From IMG/VR virus record IMGVR_UViG_3300029533_000034: a stretch of DNA of 64,000 bases; one strand, 5' to 3'. Numbering within the stretch: the stretch's first letter is position 1; the number at the start of each line of letters is the position of its first letter. A program made the position numbers and the translations under genes. Origin of the DNA: a virus (taxonomy: Duplodnaviria > Heunggongvirae > Uroviricota > Caudoviricetes). Positions 3,399-55,467 of the stretch are shown in pieces. The notes beneath the pieces are model-generated. The model saw only the letters and a list, made by a program, of their open reading frames with translations. It was not told where the DNA came from and searched no databases.

Positions 3399-3553
3399 TA
3401 TACATTGAATGCCTTGGCTGCATCAGAGGTATTCGTCGATGTCGTCGTAGTCCTGTATATCTTTAATATGCAACAAGAAAAGTTTGCGGCGCTTTTTTCA
3501 TCTCATATTCCTGATGTAAACAAATTTTGAAAATCGAAAGGAGATAATTTATT

Positions 3554-5470
3554 ATGGAAGGACAGATGAGTTTATTCAATACACCGGAGGTATCCGGAAC
3601 ATCGGCGCTTAAGGTTTCCAGAGATTTTGGAGAACATATCGGAGGCGCGAGAAAGGAACTCTGGTCAGCTGGAGGCATCAATCTTGAGGATCTTTTGGAT
3701 ATGAATGATGCTGAGAAAGCAAAATTCGTAAAGAAAGACAATATCTGGAAGAAACCGGATTACGAGCAGATGGTTGAAGCTGGCGTTCCGAAGGTAGTCG
3801 CTTACGCGATCAAAGAGGTGCGCAATGCAATTCCAGCAAAGCCATATGTTTCGTATTTCGAGCAGGACGATCCAGAAAAGGTGAAATACCGGATGGAGTG
3901 TTACGTCAAATTCGTGACCATGATCAGGGATACCATGTCGGGTGTTTCTTCTGAAGAAGAGTTCATGGAGAAACAGCAGGTTGTTTACAACCAGATTGTT
4001 GATCCGGAGCGCAGTACGCGTTACAGTATCTCTTCCAAAACGGAGTATACCGGATTATTCCAGACAAAGCTTTTGCGTGCAATCCGCTGCAATCACCAGA
4101 CGTTCTGCAATTACATACATTATATGGAGATGGAACAGTTTGCTGTGAAGAAAGAGGATAAGGTTCCGGCAGGATGGAAGATTGAAAAATATTCCCCGGA
4201 TGGTTTTTACAGCCGTAGCCGTGTCGGATGCATCAGAGATACTTACATTGTTTCCAAAGGGTATTCTGTCATTGAAAAGAATATCACAACATACGAGGAA
4301 GCACTTTGTAAGTGTCAGGAATATGCAAAGCAGCTGAGAGCCAAGAAGCCTCGCAAGGCTTCTGCTACTCCAAAGCAGCTGAAACGGGTTGAGCGTACCG
4401 GTCTTCCTGATGTCCGGAACGGACGGGATATCGTAGGAGAGGATTTCCTTAAGGATTTTGGTATCCGCGGTGGAGAGTTCGGCAACTGGATGTCCGAAAA
4501 GGACGCACAGGCAAGTCTTAACATGGCGTACGAAGCATTCTGCGATTTTGCAGATGTCCTTGGCATCCCGTTATCTTCTGTGTCTTTCTGTGGCCGTCTT
4601 GCAATCGCTTTTGGTGCAAGAGGGCGGGGTTCTGCCGTCGCTCATTACGATCCGCTTCGTGAGGTAATCAATATTACGAAGATGAAAGGAGCCGGATCGC
4701 TTGGCCATGAGATGTTCCATGCACTTGATGACATCGTAGCAAAGAAATTGGGATTAAAGAAGATGATGACAGAATCATTTGAGAAAGAAAAAATCCCGGA
4801 GAGTGTGCGAAATGTGATTTCTGCCATGCAGTACCGCAAGGCGACAAAAGAAGAGATCGAAGCTGAGAAGGCAAAGAAAATTGGGAATACAGAAAAACTT
4901 CTTCAGAAATGCATTGATTCTGTTTTCCCGGCAGACGGTCTTACAGATGCGCAGGTCAAAAAGAGAGCGGAACTGGTAAGGAATATCTTCGCAGATAAAG
5001 AGGAGCACCTTATATCCATTGATGGAACGGCAACAGCTGCAATCGAGGCACTTTCTTCCTACAAAAAAGAAGTGACTGGGCGTGTGATCAATAAGGAATC
5101 CAGAAAAGATCTGTTCTGGACCTGGTACAGATACGAAAGGGCTGTGACTGCTTCCTATAATGACATGCAGATGTTATCGGAATACCACAAGGAATCCAAA
5201 AAGATGGATGACTGCACTGCCAAAGACAAGTTTGGATACTGGTCATCCACCGTTGAGATGTTTGCCCGCGCTGGTGCATGCTACCTGACCGATATGCTGA
5301 AAGCCAAGGGCGCCAAGAGCGATTACTTATCCGGGCACTCAGAAAGCTGTGTAGGCATGGATAAAAACCTTAATCCTGTTTATGCGATGCCGCGTGGAGA
5401 AGAGCGCAAAGCGATCAATGCAGCAATCCATGACATGATCGAAGATCTCAAGGCAAAAGAACTCATTTAA
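3554..5470 (+). CDS. large 638-aa protein with HExxH (HEMFH) zinc-metallopeptidase-like motif; possible polyvalent/antirestriction-type protein
   Basis: long ORF, GGAGA RBS, HEMFH motif at about aa 390. Confidence 0.6.
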   Translation: MEGQMSLFNTPEVSGTSALKVSRDFGEHIGGARKELWSAGGINLEDLLDMNDAEKAKFVKKDNIWKKPDYEQMVEAGVPKVVAYAIKEVRNAIPAKPYVSYFEQDDPEKVKYRMECYVKFVTMIRDTMSGVSSEEEFMEKQQVVYNQIVDPERSTRYSISSKTEYTGLFQTKLLRAIRCNHQTFCNYIHYMEMEQFAVKKEDKVPAGWKIEKYSPDGFYSRSRVGCIRDTYIVSKGYSVIEKNITTYEEALCKCQEYAKQLRAKKPRKASATPKQLKRVERTGLPDVRNGRDIVGEDFLKDFGIRGGEFGNWMSEKDAQASLNMAYEAFCDFADVLGIPLSSVSFCGRLAIAFGARGRGSAVAHYDPLREVINITKMKGAGSLGHEMFHALDDIVAKKLGLKKMMTESFEKEKIPESVRNVISAMQYRKATKEEIEAEKAKKIGNTEKLLQKCIDSVFPADGLTDAQVKKRAELVRNIFADKEEHLISIDGTATAAIEALSSYKKEVTGRVINKESRKDLFWTWYRYERAVTASYNDMQMLSEYHKESKKMDDCTAKDKFGYWSSTVEMFARAGACYLTDMLKAKGAKSDYLSGHSESCVGMDKNLNPVYAMPRGEERKAINAAIHDMIEDLKAKELI

Positions 5471-5565
5471 CAACAACGAAGAAGGGCTTGCGGCGGTGCA
5501 GGCTCTTTTTTTGTTTCATATTAAAGAATATAAACAATTTGATCATCGAAAGGAGAAAAAATACT

Positions 5566-6450
5566 ATGAAAAAATCAAACGAAGAAAAAACTTATGCAAC
5601 TCTTAAACTTGGTAAGACTTATAAGTTTGCCGGATACAATTGGATGGCCTGTGAAGTGGATAATGACTGTCATGTTGTTGTAATCCAGTCGCATGGGGTA
5701 ACCCATGGTGCATGGCCTGGATATACAATGCCACAGTTTGGAAACGGCAATTACTATTCCAATTCCATTGATGGAAAGGACATCAGCGACTACGATGACA
5801 AGATGCGGGCACTTTACGATGACATCAAAGATGCAGAGGATAAAGCTGCTCCTTATGGGGAAGGACTGTATTTGATATCAGTGGAAAAAGCCGAGTTTAA
5901 GGAATGGGATAACACAGGTTCCGGAAATTACTGGCAGGCATTGAAGGCAACGGCAGAAAACGCCCATTCGTTCCGGGATGCCAATTACTTTGCGTGGCTC
6001 GGTGCTGACAATGGCAGCAAAGGCGCGTGGTGTGTTGACTCGGATGGCTGCTTCTACAACTACTTCAATAAACGCAACGACTTTGTTATTGCCCCATGCT
6101 TCAACTTAGATTTATCGAAGGTTAAAGTTGTAGATAACGAAATCGTCATTATAGACAATAAATTTGGTATATCCTTAATTGAGAAACCAGATGTTTATGG
6201 CCTGGTAAAATCAGAAATCATTAAAATGTATGACATGCTGGACACGGATGAAGTATACCCGTTAGAAATCAGCGGTTCCCAGAGTTCTGCAATGGGCTTT
6301 ATTACCCAAAAGGCAGCGGAAGTCATTGATTATGACTACGAGAATTCGGGGCTGAATGAATTTATATCATCTATTCTGGATGATATGGATAAGGAATCAG
6401 AAGACAGTATCTATGATTTCCATGGTATTAAAATTCATCTTGAACGTTGA
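5566..6450 (+). CDS. paralog family A protein (GYxW...QSHGVTHGxWPG...APxFNLDLSKVK), copy 1 of 3
   Basis: AAAGGAGA RBS; clear similarity to the ORFs at 29494 and 52459. Confidence 0.6.
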   Translation: MKKSNEEKTYATLKLGKTYKFAGYNWMACEVDNDCHVVVIQSHGVTHGAWPGYTMPQFGNGNYYSNSIDGKDISDYDDKMRALYDDIKDAEDKAAPYGEGLYLISVEKAEFKEWDNTGSGNYWQALKATAENAHSFRDANYFAWLGADNGSKGAWCVDSDGCFYNYFNKRNDFVIAPCFNLDLSKVKVVDNEIVIIDNKFGISLIEKPDVYGLVKSEIIKMYDMLDTDEVYPLEISGSQSSAMGFITQKAAEVIDYDYENSGLNEFISSILDDMDKESEDSIYDFHGIKIHLER

Positions 6451-7711: not shown

Positions 7712-7810
7712 CATTTGCAGACAGTATTAAGGAGAGTCTTCGGGCTCTTCTTTTTTTTGTTTCATATTAAGGGTGTAAGCAAAAACATATTTGAAAGGAG
7801 AATTGAAACT

Positions 7811-8305
7811 ATGAAAGAGTACAAAGAATTTAAAGATCAGGATGAAATGTATAAAGTAATTACTTCCTGGAGTAATTGTTGCGGTGACCTGCATCACAAC
7901 GGGGAATACGATGTCAGCGAGGAACAGCTTCCGGAAGAATTGCAAAGGGCATACCGCGAACTGTGGGAAGAAGGTAACGGATGCCTGGAATATCTTCTTG
8001 AGTATGGTGGCAGATATTACGTTGCGTTGTCTGCGGAATTTGATGGCGATTACGCAGATATGCTTGGTCTTTCCATGGACGAACTGTATACGGTTGGTAA
8101 ATGCAATGCACTTAAACTGTATTGCACGGATCTGTTTAAGGATACACTGCTTCTTATGGCAAAAAAGCCGCTAGATGGAGATTGCCACGAATTCATATTC
8201 CTGGTTCCGGCAATGGAGTCGAAGGAAGTTTACGATGAAATCGAGAAGGAAATCAGCGAAAAAATCTGGGATGTCCCGAAGGAAGTTGTGGATAAGAGAA
8301 GATAG
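7811..8305 (+). CDS. hypothetical acidic protein
   Basis: GAAAGGAGA RBS before internal ATG; upstream UTR shares the motif TTTTTTGTTTCATATTAA with the 5500 region. Confidence 0.55.
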   Translation: MKEYKEFKDQDEMYKVITSWSNCCGDLHHNGEYDVSEEQLPEELQRAYRELWEEGNGCLEYLLEYGGRYYVALSAEFDGDYADMLGLSMDELYTVGKCNALKLYCTDLFKDTLLLMAKKPLDGDCHEFIFLVPAMESKEVYDEIEKEISEKIWDVPKEVVDKRR

Positions 8306-8453: not shown

Positions 8454-8492
8454 TTGACAATTTTCCAGATGGCGCAATATGTATCATGTAAA
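8454..8492 (+). promoter_or_regulatory. recurring phage promoter, copy 2
   Basis: TTGACA...GGCGCAATATGTATCATG. Confidence 0.55.
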
Positions 8493-8631
8493 GGTCATAA
8501 ACCGAGCTGCCAGGGTTACCGGCTGGCAGAAATCCTTTCGATATTTGTTTACGCTTCCGGGGAAACCCGGAAAGGAGCAGGAGGACAGCAGCACATGCTG
8601 CTTCCGGGTCCGATTCCCGGATGCTTCTTTT
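8490..8631 (+). ncRNA. structured ~140-nt RNA, family copy 1 (5' hairpin, GNRA hairpin, variable hairpin, tRNA T-arm-like hairpin, U-tract)
   Basis: about 85% identical to 3 other copies, with compensatory changes in the stems. Confidence 0.55.
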
Positions 8632-8695
8632 ACAAGACCGCACGAAGCGGCACAAAAACCATATAAACATGACAAAGTACAGGGAGATTAAAAAA

Positions 8696-11069: not shown

Positions 11070-11108
11070 TTGACGATTTTTAAGATGACGCAATATGTGT
11101 ATTGTAAA
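11070..11108 (+). promoter_or_regulatory. recurring phage promoter, copy 3
   Basis: TTGACG...GACGCAATATGTGT. Confidence 0.5.
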
Positions 11109-11247
11109 GGTTATAAACCGAGCTGCCAGGGTTACCGGCTGGCAGAAATCCTTTCGATATTTGTTTACGCTTCCGGGTAATACCCGAAAGGGATAGTGAG
11201 GACACAGCGTAAGCTGTTCTGGGTTCGACTCCCGGATATCTCTTTTT
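11105..11247 (+). ncRNA. structured ~140-nt RNA, family copy 2 (3' hairpin is GGGTTCGACTCCC, i.e. a canonical tRNA T-arm)
   Basis: paralog of 8490, 33063, 36227. Confidence 0.55.
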
Positions 11248-11286
11248 TAAATGAAATTACAGAAAAAACAATATGGAGGGAAAAAG

Positions 11287-11592: not shown

Positions 11593-11631
11593 GCAAACAA
11601 AGTTAGTGAATAGCTTTAAGCCACTGTTATA

Positions 11632-33027: not shown

Positions 33028-33066
33028 TTGACATTTCAGGAGATGGCGCAAGATGTATCATGTAAA
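33028..33066 (+). promoter_or_regulatory. recurring phage promoter, copy 6
   Basis: TTGACA...GGCGCAAGATGTATCATG. Confidence 0.5.
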
Positions 33067-33205
33067 GACCATAAACCGGGCTGCCAGGTTACCGGCTGGC
33101 AGAAAACTCTTTCGATATTTGTTTACGCTTCCGGGTAATACCCGGAAGGGATAGTTGGTTCGCAGCGTAAGCTGTTCCGGGTCCCATTCCCAGATATCCC
33201 TTTTT
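33063..33205 (+). ncRNA. structured ~140-nt RNA, family copy 3
   Basis: paralog; loop and stem substitutions preserve the hairpins. Confidence 0.55.
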
Positions 33206-33275
33206 CAAATGAAATTACAGAAAAGTCTGGCGTCGTCCACACGATTCGTGCCCGTGAGCAAAGAGAACAAAGGAG

Positions 33276-33343
33276 CACACCCGGAAGGAATCGAACCCTC
33301 GTTGGCGGTTTTGGAGACCACTTTCTGTCCATCAGACAGGTGT
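33276..33343 (-). tRNA. tRNA-Trp (CCA)
   Basis: minus-strand cloverleaf; T-loop TTCGATT; anticodon loop cuCCAaa. Confidence 0.6.
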
Positions 33344-33349
33344 ATATAG

Positions 33350-33439
33350 CGCAGACACCGGGGTTCGAACCCGGACAGCGGTTGTGCCGCATGCCACATT
33401 AGCAGTGTGGAGGGGTACCAGTTACCTTTATATGTCTGC
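33350..33439 (-). tRNA. tRNA-Ser (GCT), long variable arm
   Basis: acceptor gcagaca/tgtctgc; anticodon loop cuGCUaa; T-loop TTCGAAC. Confidence 0.65.
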
Positions 33440-33444
33440 ATAAG

Positions 33445-33516
33445 AGGCATCGGAGGGAATCGAACCCTCACCTTCCGGGTTGCAACCGGACGCCTTAGCC
33501 GTTTGGCTACGATGCC
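33445..33516 (-). tRNA. tRNA-Cys (GCA)
   Basis: acceptor ggcatcg/cgatgcc; anticodon loop uuGCAac. Confidence 0.7.
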
Positions 33517-33547
33517 ATATATGGGTTCCCCTGATAAGGGAGGAGAG

Positions 33548-33631
33548 CGCTGTGCCATGGATTCGAACCTTGACATTCTTTCGGGATGGCGGTTTTTAAG
33601 ACCGCTGCTTTCCCGGTTGAGCCAGTACAGC
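33548..33631 (-). tRNA. tRNA-Leu (TAA), long variable arm, two stem mismatches
   Basis: anticodon stem gcggt/accgc, loop cuUAAaa; T-loop TTCGAAT. Confidence 0.5.
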
Positions 33632-33875
33632 AAAAATAAAGGCACACACCTCTCAATTGAAAGATGTATGCCCCGTTTTCTTAAGTATTTCCTATATTTT
33701 CCCAGAAATTCCCCAGCAATAATCACATTTCTTTCAATTTGAGACGGTATTTACGAGCACGATAACTGCACCAGCTGCATGACTGCGGCTGACTGATACT
33801 TCTCTGTGGACACTGTCTCATTTCTGTTGTCATCATTGTTTTTCCTTCCTTTCCTTGAATTTTTTCAATATTAAG

Positions 33876-33949
33876 TGTGCCTGGTGGGACTTGAACCCGA
33901 CGACGCCACGATTAAAAGTCGCGTGCTCTGCCAACTGAGCTACAGGCAC
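33876..33949 (-). tRNA. tRNA-Lys (TTT)
   Basis: acceptor gtgcctg/caggcac; D-arm TAGCTCAGTTGGCAGAGC; anticodon loop cuUUUaa. Confidence 0.7.
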
Positions 33950-33954
33950 ATGAG

Positions 33955-34026
33955 CGGATCAGGAGGGAATCGAACCCTCGTTTTCCGGTAGACAGCCGGG
34001 TGTAATAGCCTTTATACTACAGATCC
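33955..34026 (-). tRNA. tRNA with GTC anticodon (Asp?); unusual T at position 37
   Basis: canonical T-arm GAGGGTTCGATTCCCTC; anticodon loop cuGUCua. Confidence 0.5.
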
Positions 34027-34030
34027 ATAA

Positions 34031-34103
34031 AGCTCCCGTCCGGCTTCGAACCGGAAACCTTCTGATTACAAATCAGATGCACTGCCAGTTGTGCTACAGG
34101 AGC
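34031..34103 (-). tRNA. tRNA-Thr (TGT)
   Basis: acceptor gctcctg/cgggagc; anticodon stem tctga/tcaga, loop uuUGUaa. Confidence 0.6.
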
Positions 34104-34108
34104 AGGAA

Positions 34109-34181
34109 CACTTCCGACGGGTGCTGACCCCGCTATCTCCGCCGTGACAGGGCGGTGACTCTGCTGTTTGTCCTCGGAAGT
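34109..34181 (-). tRNA. non-canonical tRNA-like gene with a perfect Asp anticodon arm (ccgcc-cuGUCac-ggcgg) but T-loop GTCAGCA instead of TTCGA
   Basis: acceptor acttccg/cggaagt perfect 7 bp; D-stem 3 bp. Confidence 0.4.
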
Positions 34182-34185
34182 ATAG

Positions 34186-34267
34186 TGCGCTGGGGAGGAC
34201 TCGAACCTCCGGTGTTTCTTTGTGGCTGATTTACAGTCAGCTGTCTTCGCCGCTGGACTACCAACGC
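34186..34267 (-). tRNA. tRNA-Tyr (GTA), long variable arm
   Basis: anticodon stem gctga/tcagc, loop cuGUAaa; T-loop TTCGAGT. Confidence 0.65.
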
Positions 34268-34272
34268 ATGAG

Positions 34273-34344
34273 CTGATCCGGAGGGACTCGAACCCTCAAC
34301 GCCCCGGTTAACAGCCGGGTGCTCTACCATTGAGCTACGGATCA
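34273..34344 (-). tRNA. tRNA-Asn (GTT)
   Basis: acceptor tgatccg/cggatca; D-arm TAGCTCAATGGTAGAGC; anticodon loop cuGUUaa. Confidence 0.7.
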
Positions 34345-34345
34345 G

Positions 34346-34417
34346 AGCATGTGACGGGTCTCGAACCCGCCCGTCCTGCTTGGAAGGCAGGTGTGCCGCC
34401 AACAACACTTCACATGC
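34346..34417 (-). tRNA. tRNA-Gly (TCC)
   Basis: acceptor gcatgtg/cacatgc; anticodon stem cctgc/gcagg, loop cuUCCaa. Confidence 0.6.
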
Positions 34418-34984
34418 ATACGGATAAAAGAAGTGCCTGTTTTCTCTTATCCATTCAGTTTTTTACCGCATCGCTGCGGAGTGGACAGGAGTGGTAATGA
34501 TCCACCCTGTAAGGATTTTCAGTCCCTCGCTAATCCATCTCAGCTACCTGTCCATGGCTTTTCTGCAATAAAAAAGCCGCATCAAGAAATTTTCCTTCTT
34601 TCTGCGGTCATCTGCGTTTTGCAATATTTCGGTTTTAAGTGCCTGGTTTAAAATCGAAATCGACCGCGGGAAGGTGTATCATAATAGTTCTGTCCCCATG
34701 TTTTCCCGGATTTTGAGCATGAGAAACTAAACATATTGCTGAAATCGCCGTATGTTCTACAATCATTATTAAAATTTTTACTGCTCATCATCTTTAACAT
34801 GGTTTTCTTTTCCTTTCATTTTAATTAATGCTGGATAAACAAAAAGCCCGTCACTTAACTCAAAGCTACACATTCAAATAGCTCTGAGTTAAAAGACAGG
34901 CACTTCTTTTATCTCATGAGCCTATCATATCATACTGATCGTGAAGTGTCAACAGGAAATTTGAAAAAATAAAACAAATAAAAA

Positions 34985-35014: not shown

Positions 35015-35635
35015 TTAACATATTAATTCGTAGTCGTACAGATCGAGCGGCGTTTTGTTTCCGCTGGACCACTCAAACTCTTCGTTGTCCCAAATGCTGC
35101 GGGCGTTGTTCAGATTGATCTCATCCGTCAGTACCTTTTCTTCGATATTAATGAACCGTTCCAAAGATTCTTTGAAGCGGTTGATGACTTCCTCGGGATT
35201 CTTTGAATGCCAGCTGTATTCGTCGAAAAACCTTCCACTGGCGGTAATTGTTAATTCCTCGCCGTTATCCGACAATCCAGACAATTCAAATGTAGCGTCT
35301 TCCTCGGAAATATCGCTATAATATTCGCCAGGTTTATTGGTATCGTTGATTTTGTTCCCAAGTCCTTCCGCTTTTTCCATCAGGTCATAAATTTCCTCTG
35401 GAATCGTAAGGTAATCTTCCGGATAGTATTCCACGGTTGGCTTGATTTCTTCGATCGGAAGCTTTTCAACGAAATCGTCTCCTTTGAAAATAGCAAAAGA
35501 GTTCATACCTCTTGCGCTGATCTCAACTTTCCCGCATTTGCATGGGAATATTTTTAAAAGTCTTCTATCTCGAGTGTCATAAGCTACTGAAAAAATGCCG
35601 CATTCTTTGCATTTAAAATTTCTTTGTGTTTTCAT
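35015..35635 (-). CDS. hypothetical protein with N-terminal zinc ribbon (CKECG...CKCG); the only minus-strand protein gene
   Basis: internal ATG (MKTQRNF) with GAAGGGAGAAAAA RBS; longer ORF start overlaps the plus-strand promoter. Confidence 0.55.
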   Translation of the reverse strand: MKTQRNFKCKECGIFSVAYDTRDRRLLKIFPCKCGKVEISARGMNSFAIFKGDDFVEKLPIEEIKPTVEYYPEDYLTIPEEIYDLMEKAEGLGNKINDTNKPGEYYSDISEEDATFELSGLSDNGEELTITASGRFFDEYSWHSKNPEEVINRFKESLERFINIEEKVLTDEINLNNARSIWDNEEFEWSSGNKTPLDLYDYELIC

Positions 35636-35718
35636 GATTTTTCTCCCTTCATCAATGGTTTTATTTACACTTTTAATATGAAATATTAAACATATTTCAA
35701 AAAATTTCCCGGAAATTT

Positions 35719-35872: not shown

Positions 35873-36106
35873 ATGGTCCGGACAGAACTGTCTTTTCGTA
35901 TGGATGCAGAGGCGGAAACTCCGGTGGTCAGATTTGGAGAGAAAATACTGGTTTCCGATGGTTCAAAAGCGGTCGAGATGACTGTGATCAAGATCAACTG
36001 GGTTAATCTTCGGGATATGCTCTGCAATGTATCCGCGGATTATCATGAGAATGAGATGCCGCGATTTGAGAAAGAAAAGAAGTTCAATGTAGTTGAGAGA
36101 AAATAG
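35873..36106 (+). CDS. small hypothetical protein whose stop codon abuts a solitary CRISPR repeat
   Basis: AGAGGAAAAATG RBS. Confidence 0.45.
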   Translation: MVRTELSFRMDAEAETPVVRFGEKILVSDGSKAVEMTVIKINWVNLRDMLCNVSADYHENEMPRFEKEKKFNVVERK

Positions 36107-36136
36107 TTGTACCCTATGCGGTGCATGGGTTGAAAC
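36106..36136 (+). CRISPR. solitary CRISPR repeat unit (GTTGTACCCTATGCGGTGCATGGGTTGAAAC)
   Basis: single repeat with an intact hairpin and no adjacent spacer-repeat units. Confidence 0.5.
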
Positions 36137-36190
36137 TAAAGTCACATTTAACATGAAACAAAATTTTTTCAAAAACTTTCAAAATTCCCT

Positions 36191-36229
36191 TGACGAATCC
36201 CCAGATGGCGCAATATGTATCATGTAAAG
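36191..36229 (+). promoter_or_regulatory. recurring phage promoter, copy 8
   Basis: TTGACG...GGCGCAATATGTATCATG. Confidence 0.55.
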
Positions 36230-36365
36230 GTCATAAACCGAGCTGCCAGGGTTACCGGCTGGCAGAAATCCTTTCGATATTTGTTTACGCTTCCGGGGAA
36301 ACCCGGAAGGGATAGTGAGGACGCAGTGTAAGCTGTTCCGGGTCCGATTCCCGGATATCCCTTTT
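36227..36365 (+). ncRNA. structured ~140-nt RNA, family copy 4
   Basis: paralog of 8490, 11105, 33063. Confidence 0.55.
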
Positions 36366-36645
36366 AACTGCCGCAGGTGGTCTTCTCAAATTCAGCTGTC
36401 TGCGGCCTGTGGGATTTCCCACTGAACCAAAATAACGATAACCGCCAGAATTACAGCAGCGTGCGTTGGCGTGAGAACTATCGGCGCACAGGGATTACTC
36501 CTTTCATATTTATCTATCACACCTTTTCGTACATCGTATGGAGAGGCTGTGGAACAGCAGGTGCGTAGCCACGGGCTATTCCGGGATCGTTCCCCAGATG
36601 TTCCATTTTTAAAACATTAAAACAAATTACAGGAGGAAAATAGCG

Positions 36646-37368
36646 ATGGAAAAAGAAGTGGTATATGTCGCAGAACTGGATTCCGATGTTGACGATGTCG
36701 TTGCAGCAAATTACTTATATAATGAAGGGGTCTTAAAATGCGTAGTATGTGACCCATATCCAAGGACACCGGAGGGATTGGCACGAAAGGGAAAGCTGGA
36801 AGCGCTTGGCATCGATGTGGTTAAGAAAATGCCACCGGTTGCAAAATATGTGTTTGTTGGCGGCGCACTTACGGCTGTTGCTGGCTATATCCGGATGCAC
36901 CATGTCGACTGGCTGGTAATGAACGGAGGCTTTGTTGGAGCAAATATTGCGACCCTTGAACTGGATAAGTTCAAGGGGAAGAACACTGTCCGTACCTTCA
37001 ATTTCAACTGCGATGTTGTGGCTGCAGATACGGTTTTGAAAACTGATGAGAAGCATATTTCTCATATTGTTCTTGTTGGAAAGAACGTCTGCCACGATGT
37101 CCGGAATACGAGGAATGGTATCTGGAGTGGCGAGAAATACAAGAAATTGTTTGATGAGTACCGCGTTAAAGATGAGAAGCGTCAACATGACCTACTTGCC
37201 TGCCATGAGGGACTTGCATTCCTGCGGGGAACCAGTAAGATCTGCGAGTATGAGACAGTAAGGCCGTACAATACAGGTTTGAATGGCAAGCTGACACAGT
37301 GGGGCAGCACAAAAACTATGGAAACACCATATCGCGAAGTGCTTGCCGCTGTTGGCTATCGGGATTAA
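36646..37368 (+). CDS. nucleoside hydrolase (IunH/RihA-like) family protein
   Basis: N-terminal Asp cluster ELDSDVDDVVA, plus MNGGF...GAN...TFNFNCDVVAA...VL...HD, colinear with the IU-nucleoside hydrolase motifs DxDxxxDD, MGG..GN..EFN..DPEAA. Confidence 0.5.
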   Translation: MEKEVVYVAELDSDVDDVVAANYLYNEGVLKCVVCDPYPRTPEGLARKGKLEALGIDVVKKMPPVAKYVFVGGALTAVAGYIRMHHVDWLVMNGGFVGANIATLELDKFKGKNTVRTFNFNCDVVAADTVLKTDEKHISHIVLVGKNVCHDVRNTRNGIWSGEKYKKLFDEYRVKDEKRQHDLLACHEGLAFLRGTSKICEYETVRPYNTGLNGKLTQWGSTKTMETPYREVLAAVGYRD

Positions 37369-37370
37369 AA

Positions 37371-37679
37371 GTTACACTCCGCGAGGGGTGTATGGGTTGA
37401 AATTGAATAAATAATGCATCATAAGATATTCCAAATTGTTGCACCCCGCGAGGGGTGCAGGGATTGAAATAAAAGAACCTCTTCGATTCCCGAACACCCT
37501 TGTCTAGGTTGCACCTCGTAAGAGGTGTATGGGTTGAAATCCGGATCTGCTCTGCGGTTAGCATGGCACCACGTTGTTGCACCCTGCGAAGGGTGTATGG
37601 GTTGAAATGTGTTACCATTCCATCTTCTCCACGTCTAACTCTAGTTGCCCCCCCCCGCGCGAGGGGCGCATGGGTTGAA
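37371..37679 (+). CRISPR. CRISPR mini-array 2: 5 degenerate repeats, 4 spacers (34-37 nt); starts 2 nt after the stop codon of the hydrolase gene
   Basis: read directly from the sequence. Confidence 0.85.
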
Positions 37680-37789
37680 ATTGATTTACAGCCGGGGCAA
37701 GAAAATGTACGCTACAAAGTCCTTTCGCACCTGTCTTTTCTGTGGTATACTAAAAGAATAAAAGATATATCCAAGGAGAAGGTTAAAGG

Positions 37790-38682: not shown

Positions 38683-38903
38683 GTTGCGCCCCATTGGGTG
38701 CATGGGTTGAAATCTGAAACCGAATAGATTGGATAGGACAGGCTGAGGTTGCACCCCGCGAGGGGCGTATGGGTTGAAATAGTCCGGACAATCAAAAACG
38801 ATATCGAAGAGCTGTCGTTGCACCCTGCGAGGGGTGTATGGGTTGAAATTGCAGAAAGATCAGGATTGGAAGGTTGCATCCTATGGGATGCATGGATTGA
38901 AAC
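38683..38903 (+). CRISPR. CRISPR mini-array 3: 4 degenerate repeats, 3 spacers (34, 36 and an unusually short 23 nt)
   Basis: read directly from the sequence. Confidence 0.8.
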
Positions 38904-39086: not shown

Positions 39087-39114
39087 GTTGTGCCCCTATG
39101 GGGTGCATGGGTAA
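39087..39114 (+). repeat. degenerate CRISPR-repeat-like element in the cas5c 5' UTR (GTTGTGCCCCTATGGGGTGCATGGGTAA)
   Basis: the 5' 24 nt match the repeat consensus; the 3' handle has diverged. Confidence 0.35.
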
Positions 39115-39126
39115 TAAGAGAAAGGA

Positions 39127-39801
39127 ATGGAAAAAGAAAAAATGGGAGTGAAACTAAAAGTCTGGGGAGATTATGCATTGTTCACCAGACCGGAACTGAA
39201 AACAGAACGGTATACCTATGACGTGATGACTCCGTCGGCAGCTAGGGGGATTCTGGAATCCATCTACTGGCATCCGGGATTACGGTGGTACGTAGATAAA
39301 ATCCACGTATTAAATCCGATTGCCACTACAAGCGTAAGAAGGAATGAACTTCTCAGCAAGATACCGAAATCAAATATGTTACAGGCATATAACGGCGGCG
39401 ATGTCAAGCTGTATAATTCGTCAAGAGACGATATTATCCAGAGGGCATCCGTGATCCTCCGTGATGTCAGCTACGTGATTGAAGCACATTTTGAAATGAC
39501 GGACAAGGCAAGCCCGACGGACAGCCCGGCGAAGTTTATCAGCATCTTTAATAACAGGGCAAGAAAAGGGGCGTGCTATTCGATGCCGTATTTCGGGGTA
39601 AGGGAATTTCCGGCACACTTTGAACTCTATGAAGGTGATGAAAAGATCCCATCCTGTTATGAAAGACTTCCGGACAGGGATTTCGGGCTGATGCTTTATG
39701 ACCTGGATTATTCCTGCGGAAGAGATATCCAGCCAATGTATTACCATGCAGTTATGAAAAATGGCATCATTGATGTCGGGAACAGTGAGGTGTTTCGATG
39801 A
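39127..39801 (+). CDS. cas5: type I-C Cas5c (Cas5d) crRNA-processing subunit
   Basis: N-terminal region VWGDYALFTRPELKTERYTYDVMTPSAARGILESIYWHP matches the Cas5d family signature. Confidence 0.9.
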   Translation: MEKEKMGVKLKVWGDYALFTRPELKTERYTYDVMTPSAARGILESIYWHPGLRWYVDKIHVLNPIATTSVRRNELLSKIPKSNMLQAYNGGDVKLYNSSRDDIIQRASVILRDVSYVIEAHFEMTDKASPTDSPAKFISIFNNRARKGACYSMPYFGVREFPAHFELYEGDEKIPSCYERLPDRDFGLMLYDLDYSCGRDIQPMYYHAVMKNGIIDVGNSEVFR

Positions 39802-41537
39802 TCCTGCAGTCACTTGTAAAATTATATGAAACGCTTGCAGACCAGGGGAAAGTATCCCGTCCCGGCTGGTGCAATGCAAAGGTATCCTATGCAGTGGTGT
39901 TAAACCACGATGGGATAATCCAGGATATTGTTTCCGTAAAGCAGGAGATACAGAGAGGGAAAAAAACTGTTGAAATTCCGACAGTTATGCAGGTTCCAGA
40001 GATGGTCACCCGGGGTAACAACATTGCTTCCGGCTTTCTCTGCGAAAATGCAAAGTATCTCTTTGGAATTGATGAGAAGATGAACCCGCGTACGCTTGAC
40101 TGTTTTAAAGCAGCAAGGAAGAAACATCTTGATATCCTTGATGTCGTGGATGAGTCGGCAGCACAGGCAGTGTGCCGCTTTTTCCGTTCATGGGATCCGG
40201 AACAGGCACTGGATCACCCGGCAGTTGCGAAGCTTGCGGAAAAGTTTTATAAAGGCGGGAACCTCGTATTTGAGGTAGACGGCAAATATGTGCATGACAA
40301 TGAGGCCGTGCGCAGAGCATGGCTGGATTACAGCAGCGTACCATATGAAATGGTAACAGGAAGATGCCTGGTTACCGGGAAGAAAGCAGAGATTGCCCGC
40401 ACACATGGGAAGGTCAAAGGAGTGCCGGGAACACAGTCATCCGGTGCGGCGCTTGTATCCTTTAACGGCGCGTCCCTTGAGTCTTATGAGAAAACACAAA
40501 GTTATAACGCGCCGATCAGCACCTATGCGGCGTATGCATATGTGACAGCATTAAATTACCTGCTTTCCACGGACGGGTACCACAGCAAGGTAGGAGATTT
40601 CATGGTGGTCTTCTGGACGGATTCCGGGGATGTGGATGATGTAAGCAGACTGCGGAAGATGATGGGGAGCGCCAATGAAAAAGATCATGTCCTTGCAGAT
40701 CCGGATGAAAAACTGTACGTGCTCTGTCTTGCACCGAATGCCGGCAGAATTGCAGTCCGGTTCTTCTATGAAGATGCCATCGGAGTGATCTGGAAGAACC
40801 TGTTGGAACATGCCCGCCGGATGATGATCATAAAGCCGGCGTTTGAGGATCAGGAATTCATCAATATCTGGCAGATGCTTATGGAGACGGTAAACCAGAA
40901 CCTTACAGACAGGACCCCGGTTCCGCATATGGCTGCGATGACGTTACAGTCGGTCATTTCGGATACCAAGTATCCGCAGAGCCTGTATGCAGGAGTGCTG
41001 TCCCGCATCCGTGCCGAGCACAAAGGCGTTACTTACAGAAAAGCAGCGGTCATCAAGGCTTTTTTAATAAAGAACTATAAATGGGAGGAAGGGAAAAATA
41101 TGGAAGTATTAAACGAAGACTGCAGAGACCGTGCGTATATCCTCGGCAGGCTGTTTGCGGTAATGGAAAAGACACAGAAGGAAGCAATTGATAACATCAA
41201 CCAGACGATCTGTGACAAGTTTTACAATTCCGCATGCACAACGCCAGGATCGGTATTTCCGGTGCTGATCAGACTGTCCAACAGTCATTTAAGCAAGCTG
41301 AAACGCACAAAGCCGGGCAGAGGATATTATTTTGCGGCTAAGATCCAAAGTTTGATGGGTCTGATTCCGGTTACAGCGGATGATCCGGGGTTCCCGAAGC
41401 GTTTCACGTATGAGGATCAGGGCAAATTCGCACTTGGTTATTACCACCAGATGCAGGCAGAATATACAAGCAATAAGTCAAAAGACAGCGATCCTGAAAG
41501 CAACCAGACAAATGCAGAGAAGATGGAGGAAAACTAA
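39798..41537 (+). CDS. cas8c: type I-C Cas8c (Csd1) large subunit
   Basis: N-terminus MILQSLVKLYETLADQGKVSRPGWCNAKVSYAVVL matches Csd1; ATGA start/stop overlap with cas5. Confidence 0.9.
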   Translation: MILQSLVKLYETLADQGKVSRPGWCNAKVSYAVVLNHDGIIQDIVSVKQEIQRGKKTVEIPTVMQVPEMVTRGNNIASGFLCENAKYLFGIDEKMNPRTLDCFKAARKKHLDILDVVDESAAQAVCRFFRSWDPEQALDHPAVAKLAEKFYKGGNLVFEVDGKYVHDNEAVRRAWLDYSSVPYEMVTGRCLVTGKKAEIARTHGKVKGVPGTQSSGAALVSFNGASLESYEKTQSYNAPISTYAAYAYVTALNYLLSTDGYHSKVGDFMVVFWTDSGDVDDVSRLRKMMGSANEKDHVLADPDEKLYVLCLAPNAGRIAVRFFYEDAIGVIWKNLLEHARRMMIIKPAFEDQEFINIWQMLMETVNQNLTDRTPVPHMAAMTLQSVISDTKYPQSLYAGVLSRIRAEHKGVTYRKAAVIKAFLIKNYKWEEGKNMEVLNEDCRDRAYILGRLFAVMEKTQKEAIDNINQTICDKFYNSACTTPGSVFPVLIRLSNSHLSKLKRTKPGRGYYFAAKIQSLMGLIPVTADDPGFPKRFTYEDQGKFALGYYHQMQAEYTSNKSKDSDPESNQTNAEKMEEN

Positions 41538-41538
41538 T

Positions 41539-42450
41539 ATGAGCAAACCGATTCAGAACAAATATGATTTTGTAGTATTATTTGACGTAGAGAATGGAAA
41601 CCCAAACGGCGATCCGGATGCTGCAAACATGCCAAGGGTTGATCCAGAGACCGGCATCGGTCTTGTGACAGACGCCTGCTTAAAGCGAAAGATCCGCAAC
41701 TATGTGGAAACAGCAAAGGAAGATGCAGACGGTTTCAAGATCTACATCAAAGAGGGTATTCCGTTGAACCGCAGCGATCTTAAGGCAATCGAAAACCTTG
41801 GTGTTGATGTTGATGACAGTAAGAAGGCACTTGAGGATGTCAAGAAACTGAAAAAGACCGATGAGAACGTAGACCTTAAGCTCCGTGACTATATGTGCAG
41901 CAACTACTACGATATCCGTACGTTCGGTGCTGTTATGACCACTTTTACAAAGGCGGCATTAAACTGTGGGCAGGTACGCGGCCCGGTACAGATTGGCTTT
42001 GCAAAAAGTATTGATCCTGTTTTCAGCCAGGATATTACTGTAACCAGAGTTGCGATCACAACCGAAAAGGATGCCGAAAAGAAGAACACCGAGATGGGAA
42101 GAAAGAGCATTATCCCTTATGGTCTCTACCGCGTGGAAGGATATGTTTCTGCCAACCTTGCCCGCAAGACCACCGGTTTTTCCGAAGATGATCTGGATCT
42201 TCTCTGGAAAGCCATCATCAATATGTTTGAAAATGACCATTCTGCAGCACGCGGGAAGATGGCGGTACGTGAGCTGATTGTATTCAGGCATGACAGCGAA
42301 CTCGGCAACTGTCCTTCCTACAAGCTGTTTGAAGCAGTTGATGTCAAGAAGAACGATGATGTCGAGTTTCCTCGCAAATACTCTGATTACACCGTAAAGA
42401 TCCATGAGGATGCAATCCCGGGTGGTGTGACGATGACGCGCATGATTTAA
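41539..42450 (+). CDS. cas7: type I-C Cas7c (Csd2) backbone subunit
   Basis: N-terminus MSKPIQNKYDFVVLFDVENGNPNGDPDA is the Csd2 signature; the ORF-track start at 41380 is an in-frame upstream extension. Confidence 0.9.
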   Translation: MSKPIQNKYDFVVLFDVENGNPNGDPDAANMPRVDPETGIGLVTDACLKRKIRNYVETAKEDADGFKIYIKEGIPLNRSDLKAIENLGVDVDDSKKALEDVKKLKKTDENVDLKLRDYMCSNYYDIRTFGAVMTTFTKAALNCGQVRGPVQIGFAKSIDPVFSQDITVTRVAITTEKDAEKKNTEMGRKSIIPYGLYRVEGYVSANLARKTTGFSEDDLDLLWKAIINMFENDHSAARGKMAVRELIVFRHDSELGNCPSYKLFEAVDVKKNDDVEFPRKYSDYTVKIHEDAIPGGVTMTRMI

Positions 42451-42497: not shown

Positions 42498-42698
42498 CTG
42501 CCGGTTGTATTGGGATGCCTGGTCCAGGTGCGAACCGGAGACGTACGTAGTTTCCAGAGGAGGTTCGCACGGGGGTGAGAAGGCGAGATGTACAAGAGAG
42601 CGAGAATCCCAACCACGGGAGGCAGTTGTGGATGGGTTAATTAGGGAAATTGTTTAATATTTTGGCGGACAGGAAACAGGTTTCCGTTCGCGTTTACA

Positions 42699-43194: not shown

Positions 43195-43340
43195 GGTCTG
43201 GATGTAGTCGTACAAAAGTTGTTCCGGAGTGTATGCCGACAGCATCGGGCAGGGCATGGTCCAGGAACTTGATCCGGACGGAAAGCCGAAGCTGTATACT
43301 GTGGATGTTAACGAGCTGATCCAAAAATTTCAAAAGTAAC
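43195..43340 (+). pseudogene. duplicated 3' fragment of the lipoprotein gene 22987-23373 (about 80% nt identity), no start codon
   Basis: direct alignment with 23228-23373. Confidence 0.5.
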
Positions 43341-55440: not shown

Positions 55441-55467
55441 AACAAAAATAAGAAAGGATCAGAGAAA

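What the first reader, a model, noticed from the sequence alone, without database searches (positions are those of the whole stretch)
36227..36365. Family of four paralogous ~140-nt structured RNAs with a tRNA-like 3' domain, each fired by the conserved promoter
The copies are at 8490-8631, 11105-11247, 33063-33205 and 36227-36365. Each starts about 7 nt after the -10 of the recurring promoter.

Shared architecture:
- P1 hairpin gctgccag-ggttaccgg-ctggcag
- conserved single-stranded tract aaatcctttcgatatttgtttacg
- P2 hairpin cttccggg-GAAA-cccggaag, a GNRA tetraloop
- variable P3 hairpin
- P4 hairpin that is a tRNA T-arm (ccggg-TCCGATT-cccgg; in copy 2 a canonical ctggg-TTCGACT-cccgg)
- an acceptor-like closing stem gggata.../...atatccc
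- a U-tract

The copies show covariation. In copies 2 and 3 the P2 loop is TAATA instead of GAAA, with a matching stem change. P3 is acagc-GTAA-gctgt in copy 2, gcagt-GTAA-gctgt in copy 4 (a G.U wobble), and gcagc-ACAT-gctgc in copy 1.

This is a selected RNA structure, not a protein-coding repeat. It matches no family I can name. Copies precede unrelated cargo: the helicase, a small gene plus array 1, the tRNA operon region, and the hydrolase plus array 2.

Candidate roles:
- a cis-acting antitermination element (put/nut-like) that loads the early transcription complex
- an attenuator or leader sensing a common signal
- a stand-alone sRNA with a tRNA mimic, for example a priming or decoy function
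Basis: seen in the sequence. Interest (0 to 1): 0.85.

Follow-up and report, generated by a model that had tools for sequence, protein, structure and literature searches.

The report
Phage small RNAs with tRNA-like tails
A large human-gut phage carries several copies of an undescribed ~140-nt non-coding RNA: its front half is complementary to the ribosome-binding leaders of another set of phage genes, and its back half folds like a tRNA without an anticodon, so it is probably a phage-made translational regulator with a tRNA-shaped end.

Summary
Four ~145-nt paralogues sit at the stated coordinates, each directly behind the recurring TTGACR…GGCGCAATATGT motif. A fifth, divergent tRNA-like module lies at 36551-36610.

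About 20 homologues occur in human-gut metagenome contigs of up to 212 kb. None was found in IMG/VR or GenBank phages, and none reaches an Rfam threshold.

The 3' half is a true tRNA mimic:
- an acceptor stem
- a joining strand with an invariant GG
- a short arm capped by a tetraloop
- a T arm, then a U-run

On 20 distinct sequences, 96% of pair cells are paired and 8 of 17 pairs carry changes on both sides.

New here: the "single-stranded tract" is complementary to a second recurring leader family (T-run, TTTCATATTAA, TGTAAAC…ATCGAAAGGAG, ATG). Mean predicted duplex energy is -16.9 against -10.4 kcal/mol for other ribosome-binding regions. For the divergent type C it is -20.3 against -11.7. 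No shuffled tract of 100 did as well.

My best reading is a trans-acting antisense sRNA that masks those ribosome-binding sites. The tRNA-like module would serve 3'-end formation, processing or stability. This is unproven.

The alternatives are not excluded: a cis attenuator, or a decoy or scaffold like a Y RNA. It fails the membership tests for Y RNA, tRNA and tmRNA. I rate it a new variant of a known kind.

The parts
36190..36222 (+). Recurring promoter-like motif of copy 4 (TTGACG at 36190-36195, GGCGCAATATGTATCA at 36207-36222)
   Evidence: The motif occurs 11 times on the + strand. It lies upstream of nearly all homologues. Promoter function is inferred.
36223..36365 (+). Copy 4 of the type-A RNA (the finding)
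   Evidence: R1 169.9 bits, E 1.9e-39. Fold z-score -2.25.
36243..36265 (+). P1 hairpin CUGCCAG-GGUUACCGG-CUGGCAG
   Evidence: Present in all predicted folds. The stem is invariant in 15 distinct sequences, so there is no covariation evidence.
36266..36289 (+). Linker tract AAAUCCUUUCGAUAUUUGUUUACG, the proposed antisense element
   Evidence: Complementary to class-2 leaders. Duplexes are -17 to -24 kcal/mol. The class shift has 0 of 100-200 shuffled tracts doing as well.
36290..36309 (+). P2 hairpin CUUCCGGG-GAAA-CCCGGAAG, abutting the acceptor stem
   Evidence: Type C has GAACGC-GAAA-GUGUUC at the same place and type B' has an 11-bp hairpin.
36309..36361 (+). tRNA-like module: acceptor 5' strand 36309-36314, GG-containing joining strand 36315-36322, tetraloop-capped arm 36323-36336, T arm 36337-36355, acceptor 3' strand 36356-36361
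   Evidence: R2 77.4 bits. Covariation counts. Sub-threshold Rfam hit to the tRNA-like part of Deinococcus_Y_RNA.
36362..36365 (+). U-run after the acceptor stem
   Evidence: A short U-run follows the acceptor stem, directly or after one base, in types A, B, B' and C. Its role as a terminator or an RNase Z context is inferred.
8454..8633 (+). Promoter motif plus copy 1 (RNA 8487-8633), upstream of the SF2 helicase gene 8696-10999
11070..11248 (+). Promoter motif plus copy 2 (RNA 11103-11248), upstream of the zinc-ribbon gene 11287-11592 and a CRISPR mini-array
33028..33206 (+). Promoter motif plus copy 3 (RNA 33061-33206). It has no downstream + strand gene and converges on the minus-strand tRNA array
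   Evidence: The locus carries a deletion in L030 and is recombined in L009.
36461..36610 (+). Type B' element: hairpin 36461-36489, CUCCUUUC-containing linker 36490-36522, hairpin 36523-36547, tRNA-like module 36551-36604, U-run 36606-36610. It lies just upstream of the hydrolase-like gene 36646-37368
   Evidence: The A+B tandem is conserved in 8 loci.
3501..3556 (+). Candidate target: leader of gene 3554-5470. GTAAACAAAT (3516-3525) and TCGAAAGGA (3534-3542) are exact complements of the tract and cover the Shine-Dalgarno sequence
   Evidence: Best of 146 ribosome-binding regions, -22.5 kcal/mol. 7 of 300 shuffled tracts reach that energy.
5514..5568 (+). Candidate target: class-2 leader of gene 5566-6450
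   Evidence: -16.9 kcal/mol, rank 6 of 146.
7760..7813 (+). Candidate target: class-2 leader of gene 7811-8305
   Evidence: -18.0 to -24.1 kcal/mol.
35633..35683 (-). Candidate target: class-2 leader on the minus strand
   Evidence: -14.4 kcal/mol with type A and -20.4 with type C.

Best explanation
These are paralogous, modular non-coding RNAs of a large human-gut phage. They are transcribed from the phage's recurring TTGACR…GGCGCAATATGT promoter.

**5' half (about 85 nt): the sequence-specific effector**
- It consists of hairpin P1, a 24-nt linker and the GNRA-capped hairpin P2.
- The linker (UCCUUUCGAU·AUUUGUUUACG) base-pairs in trans with the 5' leaders of a second recurring class of phage genes. 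Those leaders read: T-run, TTTCATATTAA, TGTAAAC, 8-14 nt, ATCGAAAGGAG, 7-10 nt, ATG.
- Pairing would clamp the start of the leader and the Shine-Dalgarno sequence and so block translation initiation, or change mRNA fate.

**3' half (about 55 nt): a tRNA mimic without an anticodon, followed by a U-run**
- It occupies the place where sRNAs normally carry a terminator hairpin.
- It most likely serves 3'-end formation and stability, as a leaky intrinsic terminator, as a substrate for the host's RNase P, RNase Z and CCA enzymes, or both. These enzymes also mature the phage's own CCA-less tRNAs.
- Transcripts that are neither terminated nor cut continue into the downstream gene.

**Shown:** the copies, the structure with compensatory changes, the promoter adjacency, and the specific complementarity.

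**Inferred:** transcription, pairing in vivo, repression, termination and processing.
For: **Family and structure**
- Four copies plus a fifth module in the window.
- About 20 homologues in gut metagenome contigs.
- tRNA-like module on 20 distinct sequences: 96.2% of cells paired and 8 of 17 pairs with changes on both sides. Slid controls give 3 or fewer such pairs and 40-54% paired.
- The T-loop is UUCGANU or UCCGAUU, and the joining strand keeps an invariant GG.
- The 5' half is nearly invariant in sequence, while the tRNA-like half changes by compensated substitutions.

**Complementarity to class-2 leaders**
- The best of 146 ribosome-binding regions in the window is the leader of gene 3554, with 10 + 9 nt exact complements spanning the Shine-Dalgarno sequence.
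- Class-2 leaders take ranks 1, 4 and 6 of 146.
- With the class defined only by its TTTCATATT[AG]A core plus SD-ATG, and with the top site left out:

| Tract | Class-2 leaders (kcal/mol) | Other ribosome-binding regions (kcal/mol) |
|---|---|---|
| Type A | -16.9 | -10.4 |
| Type C | -20.3 | -11.7 |

- No shuffled tract of 100 reaches either difference, and the reversed tract shows no preference.
- Type C pairs almost continuously (-28.0 kcal/mol) with a leader 250 nt downstream of it.
- There is an intermolecular swap: AUCGAAAGG pairs with CCUUUCGAU in type A, and AUUGAAAG pairs with CUUUCAAU in type C.
- Pairing of the tract with the RNA's own 5' end is weak, at -5.4 kcal/mol.

**Stand-alone contexts**
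- Copy 3 has no downstream gene. In L041 the RNA is followed by a new promoter.

**tRNA context**
- The phage tRNAs are CCA-less with U after the discriminator, as the element is.

**Precedent**
- C4 RNA of P1/P7 and CI RNA of P4 are phage regulatory RNAs matured by RNase P (PMC5499578).
Against: - There are no expression data. The 5' and 3' ends are unknown.
- The class-2 family was recognised after its members appeared among the top hits, so the tests are partly post hoc.
- By energy alone the single best site is reached by 7 of 300 shuffled tracts.
- The complementarity could be a by-product. The RNA's own 5' leader (UGUAAA…CGAG) resembles class-2 leaders, and the tract pairs with that leader.
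- Types B and B' show only a small preference for class-2 leaders: -3.8 and -2.6 kcal/mol.
- Three of four copies sit as 5' leaders with no promoter before the next gene, which also fits a cis role.
- The acceptor stem plus U-run is a weak, branched terminator. In type C and in the A+B tandems the tRNA-like module is internal to a longer transcript.
- The model does not explain why a full tRNA elbow, rather than a plain hairpin, is kept.
Confidence: 0.42

Rival explanations
1. The element is a cis-acting leader or attenuator. The tRNA-like stem plus U-run is a conditional terminator or processing site in the 5' UTR, and it sets how much transcription or translation reaches the downstream gene. 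A tRNA-binding factor or the tRNA-processing load would be the signal.
For: - Copies 1, 2 and 4 (with B') lie 40-60 nt upstream of genes with no promoter motif in between.
- The hydrolase-like gene must be read through two such modules.
- In L023/L038 the 5' half runs directly into a Shine-Dalgarno sequence and ATG.
- A U-run follows the acceptor stem, directly or after one base, in all types.
Against: - Copy 3 and the L041 copy control no gene.
- Pairing of the tract with the cognate downstream ribosome-binding sites is unexceptional: ranks 108, 27 and 36 of 146.
- The folds suggested no alternative antiterminator structure.
- The downstream genes are unrelated: an SF2 helicase, a zinc-ribbon protein and a nucleoside-hydrolase-like protein.
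Confidence: 0.25
2. The element is a tRNA-mimic decoy or scaffold, like a Y RNA. The tRNA-like module is the business end. It would bind a host tRNA-recognising protein such as PNPase/Ro60, a tRNA-targeting defence nuclease, EF-Tu or a modification enzyme, either to sequester it or to redirect it.
For: - The only Rfam similarity is to the tRNA-like part of the Deinococcus Y RNA: 28.2 bits, E 0.006 in a 551-nt search, and 23.3 bits in L022.
- That module has the same layout: a D-loop-like strand, a 5-bp arm and a T arm inside a closing stem (PMC4201824).
- The T-loop and the GG are conserved.
- The RNA is multi-copy and follows the phage's recurring promoter motif.
Against: - No TROVE/Ro60 protein was found among all ORFs of 350 aa or more, nor among the neighbouring ORFs that were scanned.
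- There is no long terminal stem and no GNCGAA motif.
- The score is far below the Rfam threshold of 80 bits.
- The tRNA-like half is the less conserved half in sequence, and it is missing in the L023/L038 variant.
- There is no anticodon loop, so it cannot act as a decoy for anticodon nucleases.
Confidence: 0.15
3. The element is a put/nut-like processive antitermination signal that modifies RNA polymerase leaving the promoter.
For: It sits immediately after the promoter, and the 5' half has two hairpins.
Against: - There is no sequence or structural match to any Rfam cis-regulatory family.
- Only 4 of 11 promoters carry it.
- Copy 3 leads nowhere.
- The idea explains neither the tRNA-like module nor the complementarity to leaders.
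Confidence: 0.05
4. The element is mainly a recombination or regulatory cassette: a repeated promoter plus stem-loops that shuffles genes, as PeSL cassettes do in T4-type phages. The RNA itself would have no function.
For: L009 is a recombinant between copy 3 and copy 4 that removes the tRNA array. L030 and L025 show deletions or junctions at the copies.
Against: Compensatory changes in three helices across divergent types and the retained complementarity to leaders show selection on the RNA itself.
Confidence: 0.05

Closest known systems
C4 antisense RNA of phages P1/P7 and CI RNA of satellite phage P4
   Same: - Both are phage-encoded small regulatory RNAs made from the leader of a transcription unit.
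- Both are substrates of host RNase P (PMC5499578).
- From my own knowledge of the literature: C4 pairs with a ribosome-binding region, and CI pairs with complementary sites in the leader.
   Different: - C4 and CI are hairpin-like substrates without a T-loop (PMC5499578). This RNA has a full acceptor/T-arm/elbow mimic.
- Here the antisense part lies 5' of the tRNA-like part.
- It is multi-copy.
- No Rfam C4 hit was obtained.
- Processing and pairing are untested.
Deinococcus radiodurans Y RNA (Yrn1, Rfam RF01053) and bacterial YrlA
   Same: - It has a tRNA-like module with a D-loop-like strand, a short arm and a T arm enclosed by a stem.
- It is about 72% identical over 43 nt to the RF01053 consensus (my count on the alignment; layout).
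   Different: - No Ro60/Rsr gene nearby.
- No long Ro60-binding stem and no GNCGAA motif.
- 28 bits against a threshold of 80.
- It has an extra 85-nt 5' domain.
tRNA-like domain of tmRNA
   Same: It has an acceptor stem, a T arm and a D-loop without a D-stem, with another helix in place of the anticodon arm (from my own knowledge).
   Different: - The domain is formed by one contiguous 55-nt stretch, not by the 5' and 3' ends.
- There is no tag reading frame and there are no pseudoknots.
- ARAGORN finds no tmRNA.
- G3·U70 is not conserved.
tRNA-like processing signals (plant mitochondrial t-elements, MALAT1 mascRNA) and tRNA scaffolds
   Same: An anticodon-less tRNA mimic embedded in a longer transcript, where RNase P and RNase Z cuts would define RNA ends (from my own knowledge).
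   Different: Those are eukaryotic or organellar. Cleavage is untested here. This element is additionally followed by a U-run and preceded by a conserved effector domain.
HK022 put RNA
   Same: It is promoter-proximal and its 5' half has two hairpins.
   Different: No sequence or structural similarity was detected. The two hairpins are separated by a 24-nt conserved linker. One copy has no operon to antiterminate.

Membership tests
Bacterial Y RNA (Yrn1/YrlA) | Encoded within about 4 kb of a Ro60/Rsr (TROVE) gene on the same strand (PMC4201824) | tested here: not met
   Pfam scans of all ORFs of 350 aa or more and of many neighbouring ORFs found no TROVE domain. The rest of the roughly 200-kb genome was not seen.
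Bacterial Y RNA (Yrn1/YrlA) | Long stem formed by the 5' and 3' ends with the Ro60-binding site, or the GNCGAAN0-1G motif near the 5' end | tested here: not met
   The closing stem is only 6-7 bp. No CGAA occurs anywhere in the type-A sequence.
Bacterial Y RNA (Yrn1/YrlA) | Rfam model reaches its gathering score | tested here: not met
   RF01053 scores 28.2 and 23.3 bits against 80, and only over model positions 43-85.
Bacterial Y RNA (Yrn1/YrlA) | tRNA-like effector module with a T arm | tested here: met
tRNA | Cloverleaf with a D arm and a 7-nt anticodon loop, detected by ARAGORN or Rfam RF00005 | tested here: not met
   Neither tool calls it. The arm is capped by a 3-4-nt loop. Types A and B have no D stem. 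Only type C has a D-arm-like hairpin.
tmRNA | tRNA-like domain formed by both termini, plus a tag ORF and pseudoknots | tested here: not met
   ARAGORN finds no tmRNA. The module is one contiguous stretch.
RNase P-matured phage antisense RNAs (C4, CI) | Complementarity to a leader or ribosome-binding region of phage transcripts | tested here: met
   In silico only.
RNase P-matured phage antisense RNAs (C4, CI) | Maturation by RNase P | not testable with these tools
   The acceptor stem and T arm together give a 12-13-bp stack, as in tRNA. The phage tRNA genes abut each other directly, so structured 5' flanks are tolerated. There are no cleavage data.
RNase P-matured phage antisense RNAs (C4, CI) | Homology to the Rfam C4 family | tested here: not met
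   No hit at E <= 10 in 36150-36700 and none at the gathering score in the window.
Intrinsic terminator | Stable G+C-rich stem directly followed by a U-run | tested here: inconclusive
   The scanner flags only the T-arm hairpin, with a distant U-run. The stem next to the U-run is the 6-7-bp acceptor stem of a three-way junction, and downstream genes need read-through.
Any curated Rfam family | Match at the gathering threshold | tested here: not met
   Only tRNAs are found in the window.

The most novel reading that the evidence does not exclude
The tRNA-like module is not a passive cap. It would be an adaptor that brings a tRNA-recognising machine to whichever phage mRNA the antisense tract has bound. 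Candidates for that machine are RNase P/RNase Z, PNPase as with Y RNAs, or the ribosome. This would make the RNA a natural guide RNA for targeted mRNA cleavage or ribosome interference, used by a jumbo phage to time expression of one class of its genes.
Probability: 0.1. Interest if true: 0.85.

Novelty: new variant of a known kind. Interest (0 to 1): 0.6.

Why it matters
- If the reading is right, this is a new family of phage regulatory RNAs. It joins an antisense "seed" against a whole class of phage 5' leaders to a complete anticodon-less tRNA mimic.
- tRNA mimicry in bacteria is known from only a few RNAs (tmRNA, Y RNAs). A multi-copy mimic in an uncultured gut jumbo phage that also carries its own type I-C Cascade and CRISPR mini-arrays would add a case, with directly testable predicted targets.
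- The natural CGA/CAA swap between type A and type C and their leaders offers ready-made compensatory pairs for experiments.
- It also gives a handle on temporal gene control in a phage group that is absent from the phage collections searched here.

Tried and rejected
- **Rfam.** At gathering thresholds only tRNAs were found. With relaxed thresholds on three stretches, the only hits were sub-threshold ones to Deinococcus_Y_RNA and tRNA-Sec.
- **Public phage collections.** blastn against GenBank phages found nothing. Exact-pattern and protein-guided scans of IMG/VR found no relative carrying the RNA. The hydrolase relatives L001-L004 lack it, and the helicase, Cas8c and promoter-pattern scans gave nothing or chance hits.
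- **GTDB genomes.** One chance hit, L052.
- **Exact antisense targets.** A search for exact or near-exact targets of the tract, allowing no wobble pairs or bulges, found only the copies themselves.
- **Cis anti-Shine-Dalgarno idea.** I considered that the tract masks the ribosome-binding site of its own downstream gene. I rejected it because those sites rank 108, 27 and 36 of 146.
- **Link to CRISPR.** Rejected. The helicase after copy 1 is RadD/XPB-like and not Cas3, and the Cascade operon's own promoter lacks the RNA.
- **Y RNA membership.** Rejected (see the membership test).
- **Element after type C in L022.** It has a B-like hairpin and a plain terminator, but its tract is not complementary to the leaders (-7.9 kcal/mol), so I did not use it as evidence.
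- **MAFFT alignment of the tRNA-like modules.** It misplaced the variable arm, so the covariation counts were made on a model-fitted alignment. That alignment leans towards the structure.
Full report
**1. The observation**

- Aligned with their upstream regions they share 82% column identity. Aligned over the RNA alone they share 90%.
- A covariance model built from them (R1) finds the four copies at 8487-8633, 11103-11248, 33061-33206 and 36223-36367, with E between 2e-40 and 6e-37.
- It also finds a fifth, partial match at 36549-36606 (E 2e-4), which covers only the tRNA-like part.
- The copies differ by single-nucleotide indels. The overlapping minus-strand ORFs differ between copies in start codon, length and position relative to the element. 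This is not a coding repeat.
- The copies are G+C-rich (47-53%) in a window of 39% G+C.

**2. The promoter**

The motif TTGAC[AG]-N14/15-GGCGCAA[TG]ATGT occurs 11 times in the window, always on the + strand. Each of the four copies begins right after one.
- A plain sigma-70 scanner does not call it, because no hexamer at the usual spacing fits TATAAT well.
- That it is a promoter, and where transcription starts, are therefore inferences.
- Seven of the eleven motifs are followed by ordinary leaders without the RNA.

**3. Relatives**

| Collection searched | Result |
|---|---|
| Rfam, gathering thresholds | only tRNAs |
| GenBank phages (blastn) | nothing |
| IMG/VR (exact patterns, protein-guided scans) | no relative carrying the RNA |
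| Metagenome contigs (19-mer from the conserved tract) | 47 loci, about 20 with the RNA |

- Nearly all of the RNA-bearing loci are from human-gut assemblies, on contigs of up to 212 kb.
- Because that scan was anchored on the tract, the tract's invariance among those homologues is partly due to how they were found. Among the four window copies, which were not found that way, the tract is also nearly invariant.
- Nearly every type-A homologue follows the promoter motif.
- Informative variants:
  - L030 has lost the promoter and P1 at the copy-3 locus.
  - L009 is a recombinant between copy 3 and copy 4 that removes the tRNA array.
  - L023 and L038 keep the 5' half but have no T arm, and run straight into a Shine-Dalgarno sequence and ATG.
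  - In L041 the RNA is followed by another promoter motif.

**4. Anatomy**

The family is modular.

*The 5' half* holds a 20-nt start, hairpin P1, a 24-nt linker, and hairpin P2 capped by GAAA or UAAUA.

*The 3' half* is a three-way junction:
- a 6-7-bp acceptor-like stem
- an 8-10-nt joining strand with an invariant GG
- an arm of 4-11 bp capped by a 3-4-nt loop (GUAA, ACAU, AAGC, ACG or GAGA)
- a 6-bp T stem with a T-loop UUCGANU or UCCGAUU
- a U-run, directly after the acceptor stem or after one base

*Other types.* More divergent versions keep the order hairpin, CYUUUC-containing linker, hairpin, tRNA-like module:
- Type B and B' always lie about 180 nt downstream of a type-A copy.
- Type C is at L022:6790-6934.
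- Type C even has a D-arm-like hairpin (GUGC-UGGC-GCAC).

*Covariation.* A second model of the tRNA-like module (R2) finds 30 instances, 20 of them distinct. The window's real tRNAs score 15 bits or less with it. On that alignment:
- 96.2% of pair cells are standard pairs.
- 8 of 17 pairs carry changes on both sides, for example U-A to C-G at acceptor position 5 in 7 sequences.
- With the 3' partners slid by 1-3 columns, 3 or fewer such pairs are seen and only 40-54% of cells are paired.
- The alignment is fitted to the model and the sequences fall into only about five lineages. The support is therefore good but not a formal probability.

*What is not supported by covariation.* P1 never varies in 15 distinct type-A sequences and so carries no such evidence. 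P2 is supported by comparison between types: CUUCCGGG/CCCGGAAG in type A, GAACGC/GUGUUC in type C (both with GAAA loops), and an 11-bp hairpin in B'.

**5. Comparison with known tRNA mimics**

The only Rfam similarity is sub-threshold, to the tRNA-like part of the Deinococcus radiodurans Y RNA.
- It scores 28.2 bits against a threshold of 80, with E 0.006 in a 551-nt search, and 23.3 bits in L022.
- According to Chen et al. 2014 (PMC4201824), Yrn1 has the same layout inside its Ro60-binding stem: D-loop features, a 5-bp arm and a T arm.
- Y RNAs are defined by a nearby Ro60 gene, a long terminal stem, and a GGUCCGA or GNCGAA motif. None of these is present here (sequence).
- ARAGORN calls neither a tRNA nor a tmRNA.

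I therefore file it under none of these families.

**6. What the linker does**

I first tested whether the anti-Shine-Dalgarno-like linker (AUCCUUUC…) masks the ribosome-binding site of its own downstream gene. Whole-leader folds suggested this for copies 2 and 4. The idea failed: in a ranking of 146 ribosome-binding regions, the cognate sites are ranks 108, 27 and 36.

The same ranking put a different site first, the leader of gene 3554.
- There GTAAACAAAT and TCGAAAGGA are exact complements of the two halves of the linker. They are separated by 8 nt and cover the Shine-Dalgarno sequence.
- The predicted duplex is -22.5 kcal/mol. 7 of 300 shuffled tracts reach this energy somewhere among the 146 regions.

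This site belongs to a second recurring leader family ("class 2"): a T-run, TTTCATATT[AG]A, about 3 nt, TGTAAAC, 8-14 nt, ATCGAAAGGAG, 7-10 nt, ATG.
- It is present upstream of genes 3554, 5566 and 7811, upstream of a minus-strand gene at 35683, and in L019, L022, L030, L038 and L040.
- Its members take ranks 1, 4 and 6 of 146.

To limit circularity I defined the class only by its core plus SD-ATG and left out the top site. Mean duplex energies were then:

| Tract | Class-2 leaders (kcal/mol) | 89 other ribosome-binding regions (kcal/mol) |
|---|---|---|
| Type A | -16.9 | -10.4 |
| Type C | -20.3 | -11.7 |

- No shuffled tract of 100 reached either difference, and the reversed tracts showed no preference.
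- An earlier, less strict version gave the same result for all four types, though the shift was small for B and B'.
- Type C pairs almost continuously (-28.0 kcal/mol) with the leader that lies 250 nt downstream of it in L022.
- Where leaders read AUUGAAAGG instead of AUCGAAAGG, type C reads CUUUCAAU instead of type A's CUUUCGAU. This is an intermolecular compensatory pattern.
- The linker's pairing with the RNA's own 5' end is weak at -5.4 kcal/mol, so that pairing should not keep the linker occupied.

Caveats:
- The class was recognised post hoc.
- The RNA's own start (UGUAAA…CGAG) resembles class-2 leaders, so part of the complementarity could be a by-product of an internal helix.
- Nothing is known about expression.

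**7. What the tRNA-like module does**

It sits where sRNAs usually carry a terminator, and a short U-run follows it in every type.
- The phage's own ten minus-strand tRNA genes are CCA-less and packed end to end, and every trailer starts with U.
- The host must therefore mature these tRNAs with RNase P, an RNase Z-type 3' endonuclease and the CCA-adding enzyme. That RNase Z prefers CCA-less precursors with U after the discriminator is my own knowledge of the Bacillus enzyme.
- The mimic has the same 12-13-bp acceptor/T stack, a U discriminator and a U-rich trailer, so it is a plausible substrate for these enzymes.
- Copy 3, which faces the 3' end of the tRNA operon with no gene to express, needs some way to end there.
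- By contrast, copies 1, 2 and 4 must allow read-through, because no promoter precedes the next gene.
- In type C and in the A+B tandems the module is internal to a longer transcript. It is therefore not simply a terminator.
- The 5' half is conserved in sequence, while the tRNA-like half is conserved mainly in structure. That fits a sequence-specific effector joined to a structural handle.

I infer a role in end formation, processing and stability, but I cannot tell which.

**8. Verdict**

This is a real and, as far as these libraries show, undescribed RNA family.
- My best-supported mechanism (about 0.4) is a trans-acting antisense sRNA against class-2 leaders with a tRNA-mimic 3' module.
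- The nearest functional precedents are the RNase P-matured phage regulators C4 (P1/P7) and CI (P4). Those lack a T-loop (PMC5499578).
- A cis attenuator (about 0.25) and a decoy or scaffold like a Y RNA (about 0.15) remain open.
- I rate it a new variant of a known kind, of moderate to high interest.

Noticed in passing
39127-42450 (+): A phage-borne type I-C Cascade operon sits behind one of the recurring promoters: cas5c 39127-39801, cas8c 39798-41537 (Csd1, E 8e-161) and cas7 (ORF 41380-42450). No cas3, cas1, cas2 or cas4 turned up among the window ORFs scanned (all of 350 aa or more and many smaller ones). The helicase at 8696-10999 is RadD/XPB-like and not Cas3.
   Followed up: partly
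11629-11870, 37370-37690, 38683-38900, 42698-43064; solitary units at 36106-36135, 39088-39117, 61216-61307: Many I-C-type repeats (GTTGCACCCCGCGAGGGGTGTATGGGTTGAAAT) are scattered as mini-arrays and single units. Some single units lie just upstream of promoters or between a promoter and cas5. They could be crRNA sources, Cas5-dependent transcript-processing sites or repeat decoys.
   Followed up: no
3501-3556, 5514-5568, 7760-7813, 35633-35683 (-); L040:83, L040:522, L038:1304, L022:537, L022:7140: A second recurring intergenic cassette (T-run, TTTCATATTAA, TGTAAAC…ATCGAAAGGAG, ATG) may be a second promoter or leader class of the phage. I used it here as the candidate target set.
   Followed up: partly
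53089-53190 (+): A tRNA-like gene with an insertion of about 36 nt in the anticodon arm. Rfam tRNA scores it at 33.6 bits, but ARAGORN does not call it. It could be an intron-bearing tRNA or another anticodon-less mimic.
   Followed up: partly
33275-34553 (-), 19149-19222 (+): There are ten tightly packed CCA-less tRNA genes on the minus strand and a tRNA-Met on the + strand. Every 3' trailer begins with U.
   Followed up: yes
L009:1136-1284, L030:2999-3116, L025:6793-6866: The RNA copies act as recombination points in relatives. L009 joins the copy-3 promoter and 5' part to the copy-4 3' part, which deletes the tRNA array. L030 has a deletion of the promoter and P1. In L025 a copy without the promoter lies at a contig end and may be an assembly chimera.
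   Followed up: partly
55293-55459 and 55512-55678 (+): A tandem 167-nt repeat at 92% identity lies just upstream of the promoter at 55768. It appears to contain small ORFs with similar ribosome-binding regions.
   Followed up: no
5603-5902 vs 29510-29809; 23281-23373 vs 43247-43339; 26001-26127 vs 56490-56616: Dispersed duplicated gene segments at 72-86% identity indicate paralogous gene families or modular shuffling within the phage.
   Followed up: no
L022:2642-6649: In a relative, the A+B RNA tandem precedes a 1335-aa ORF instead of the hydrolase-like gene. Type C follows that ORF's terminator.
   Followed up: no
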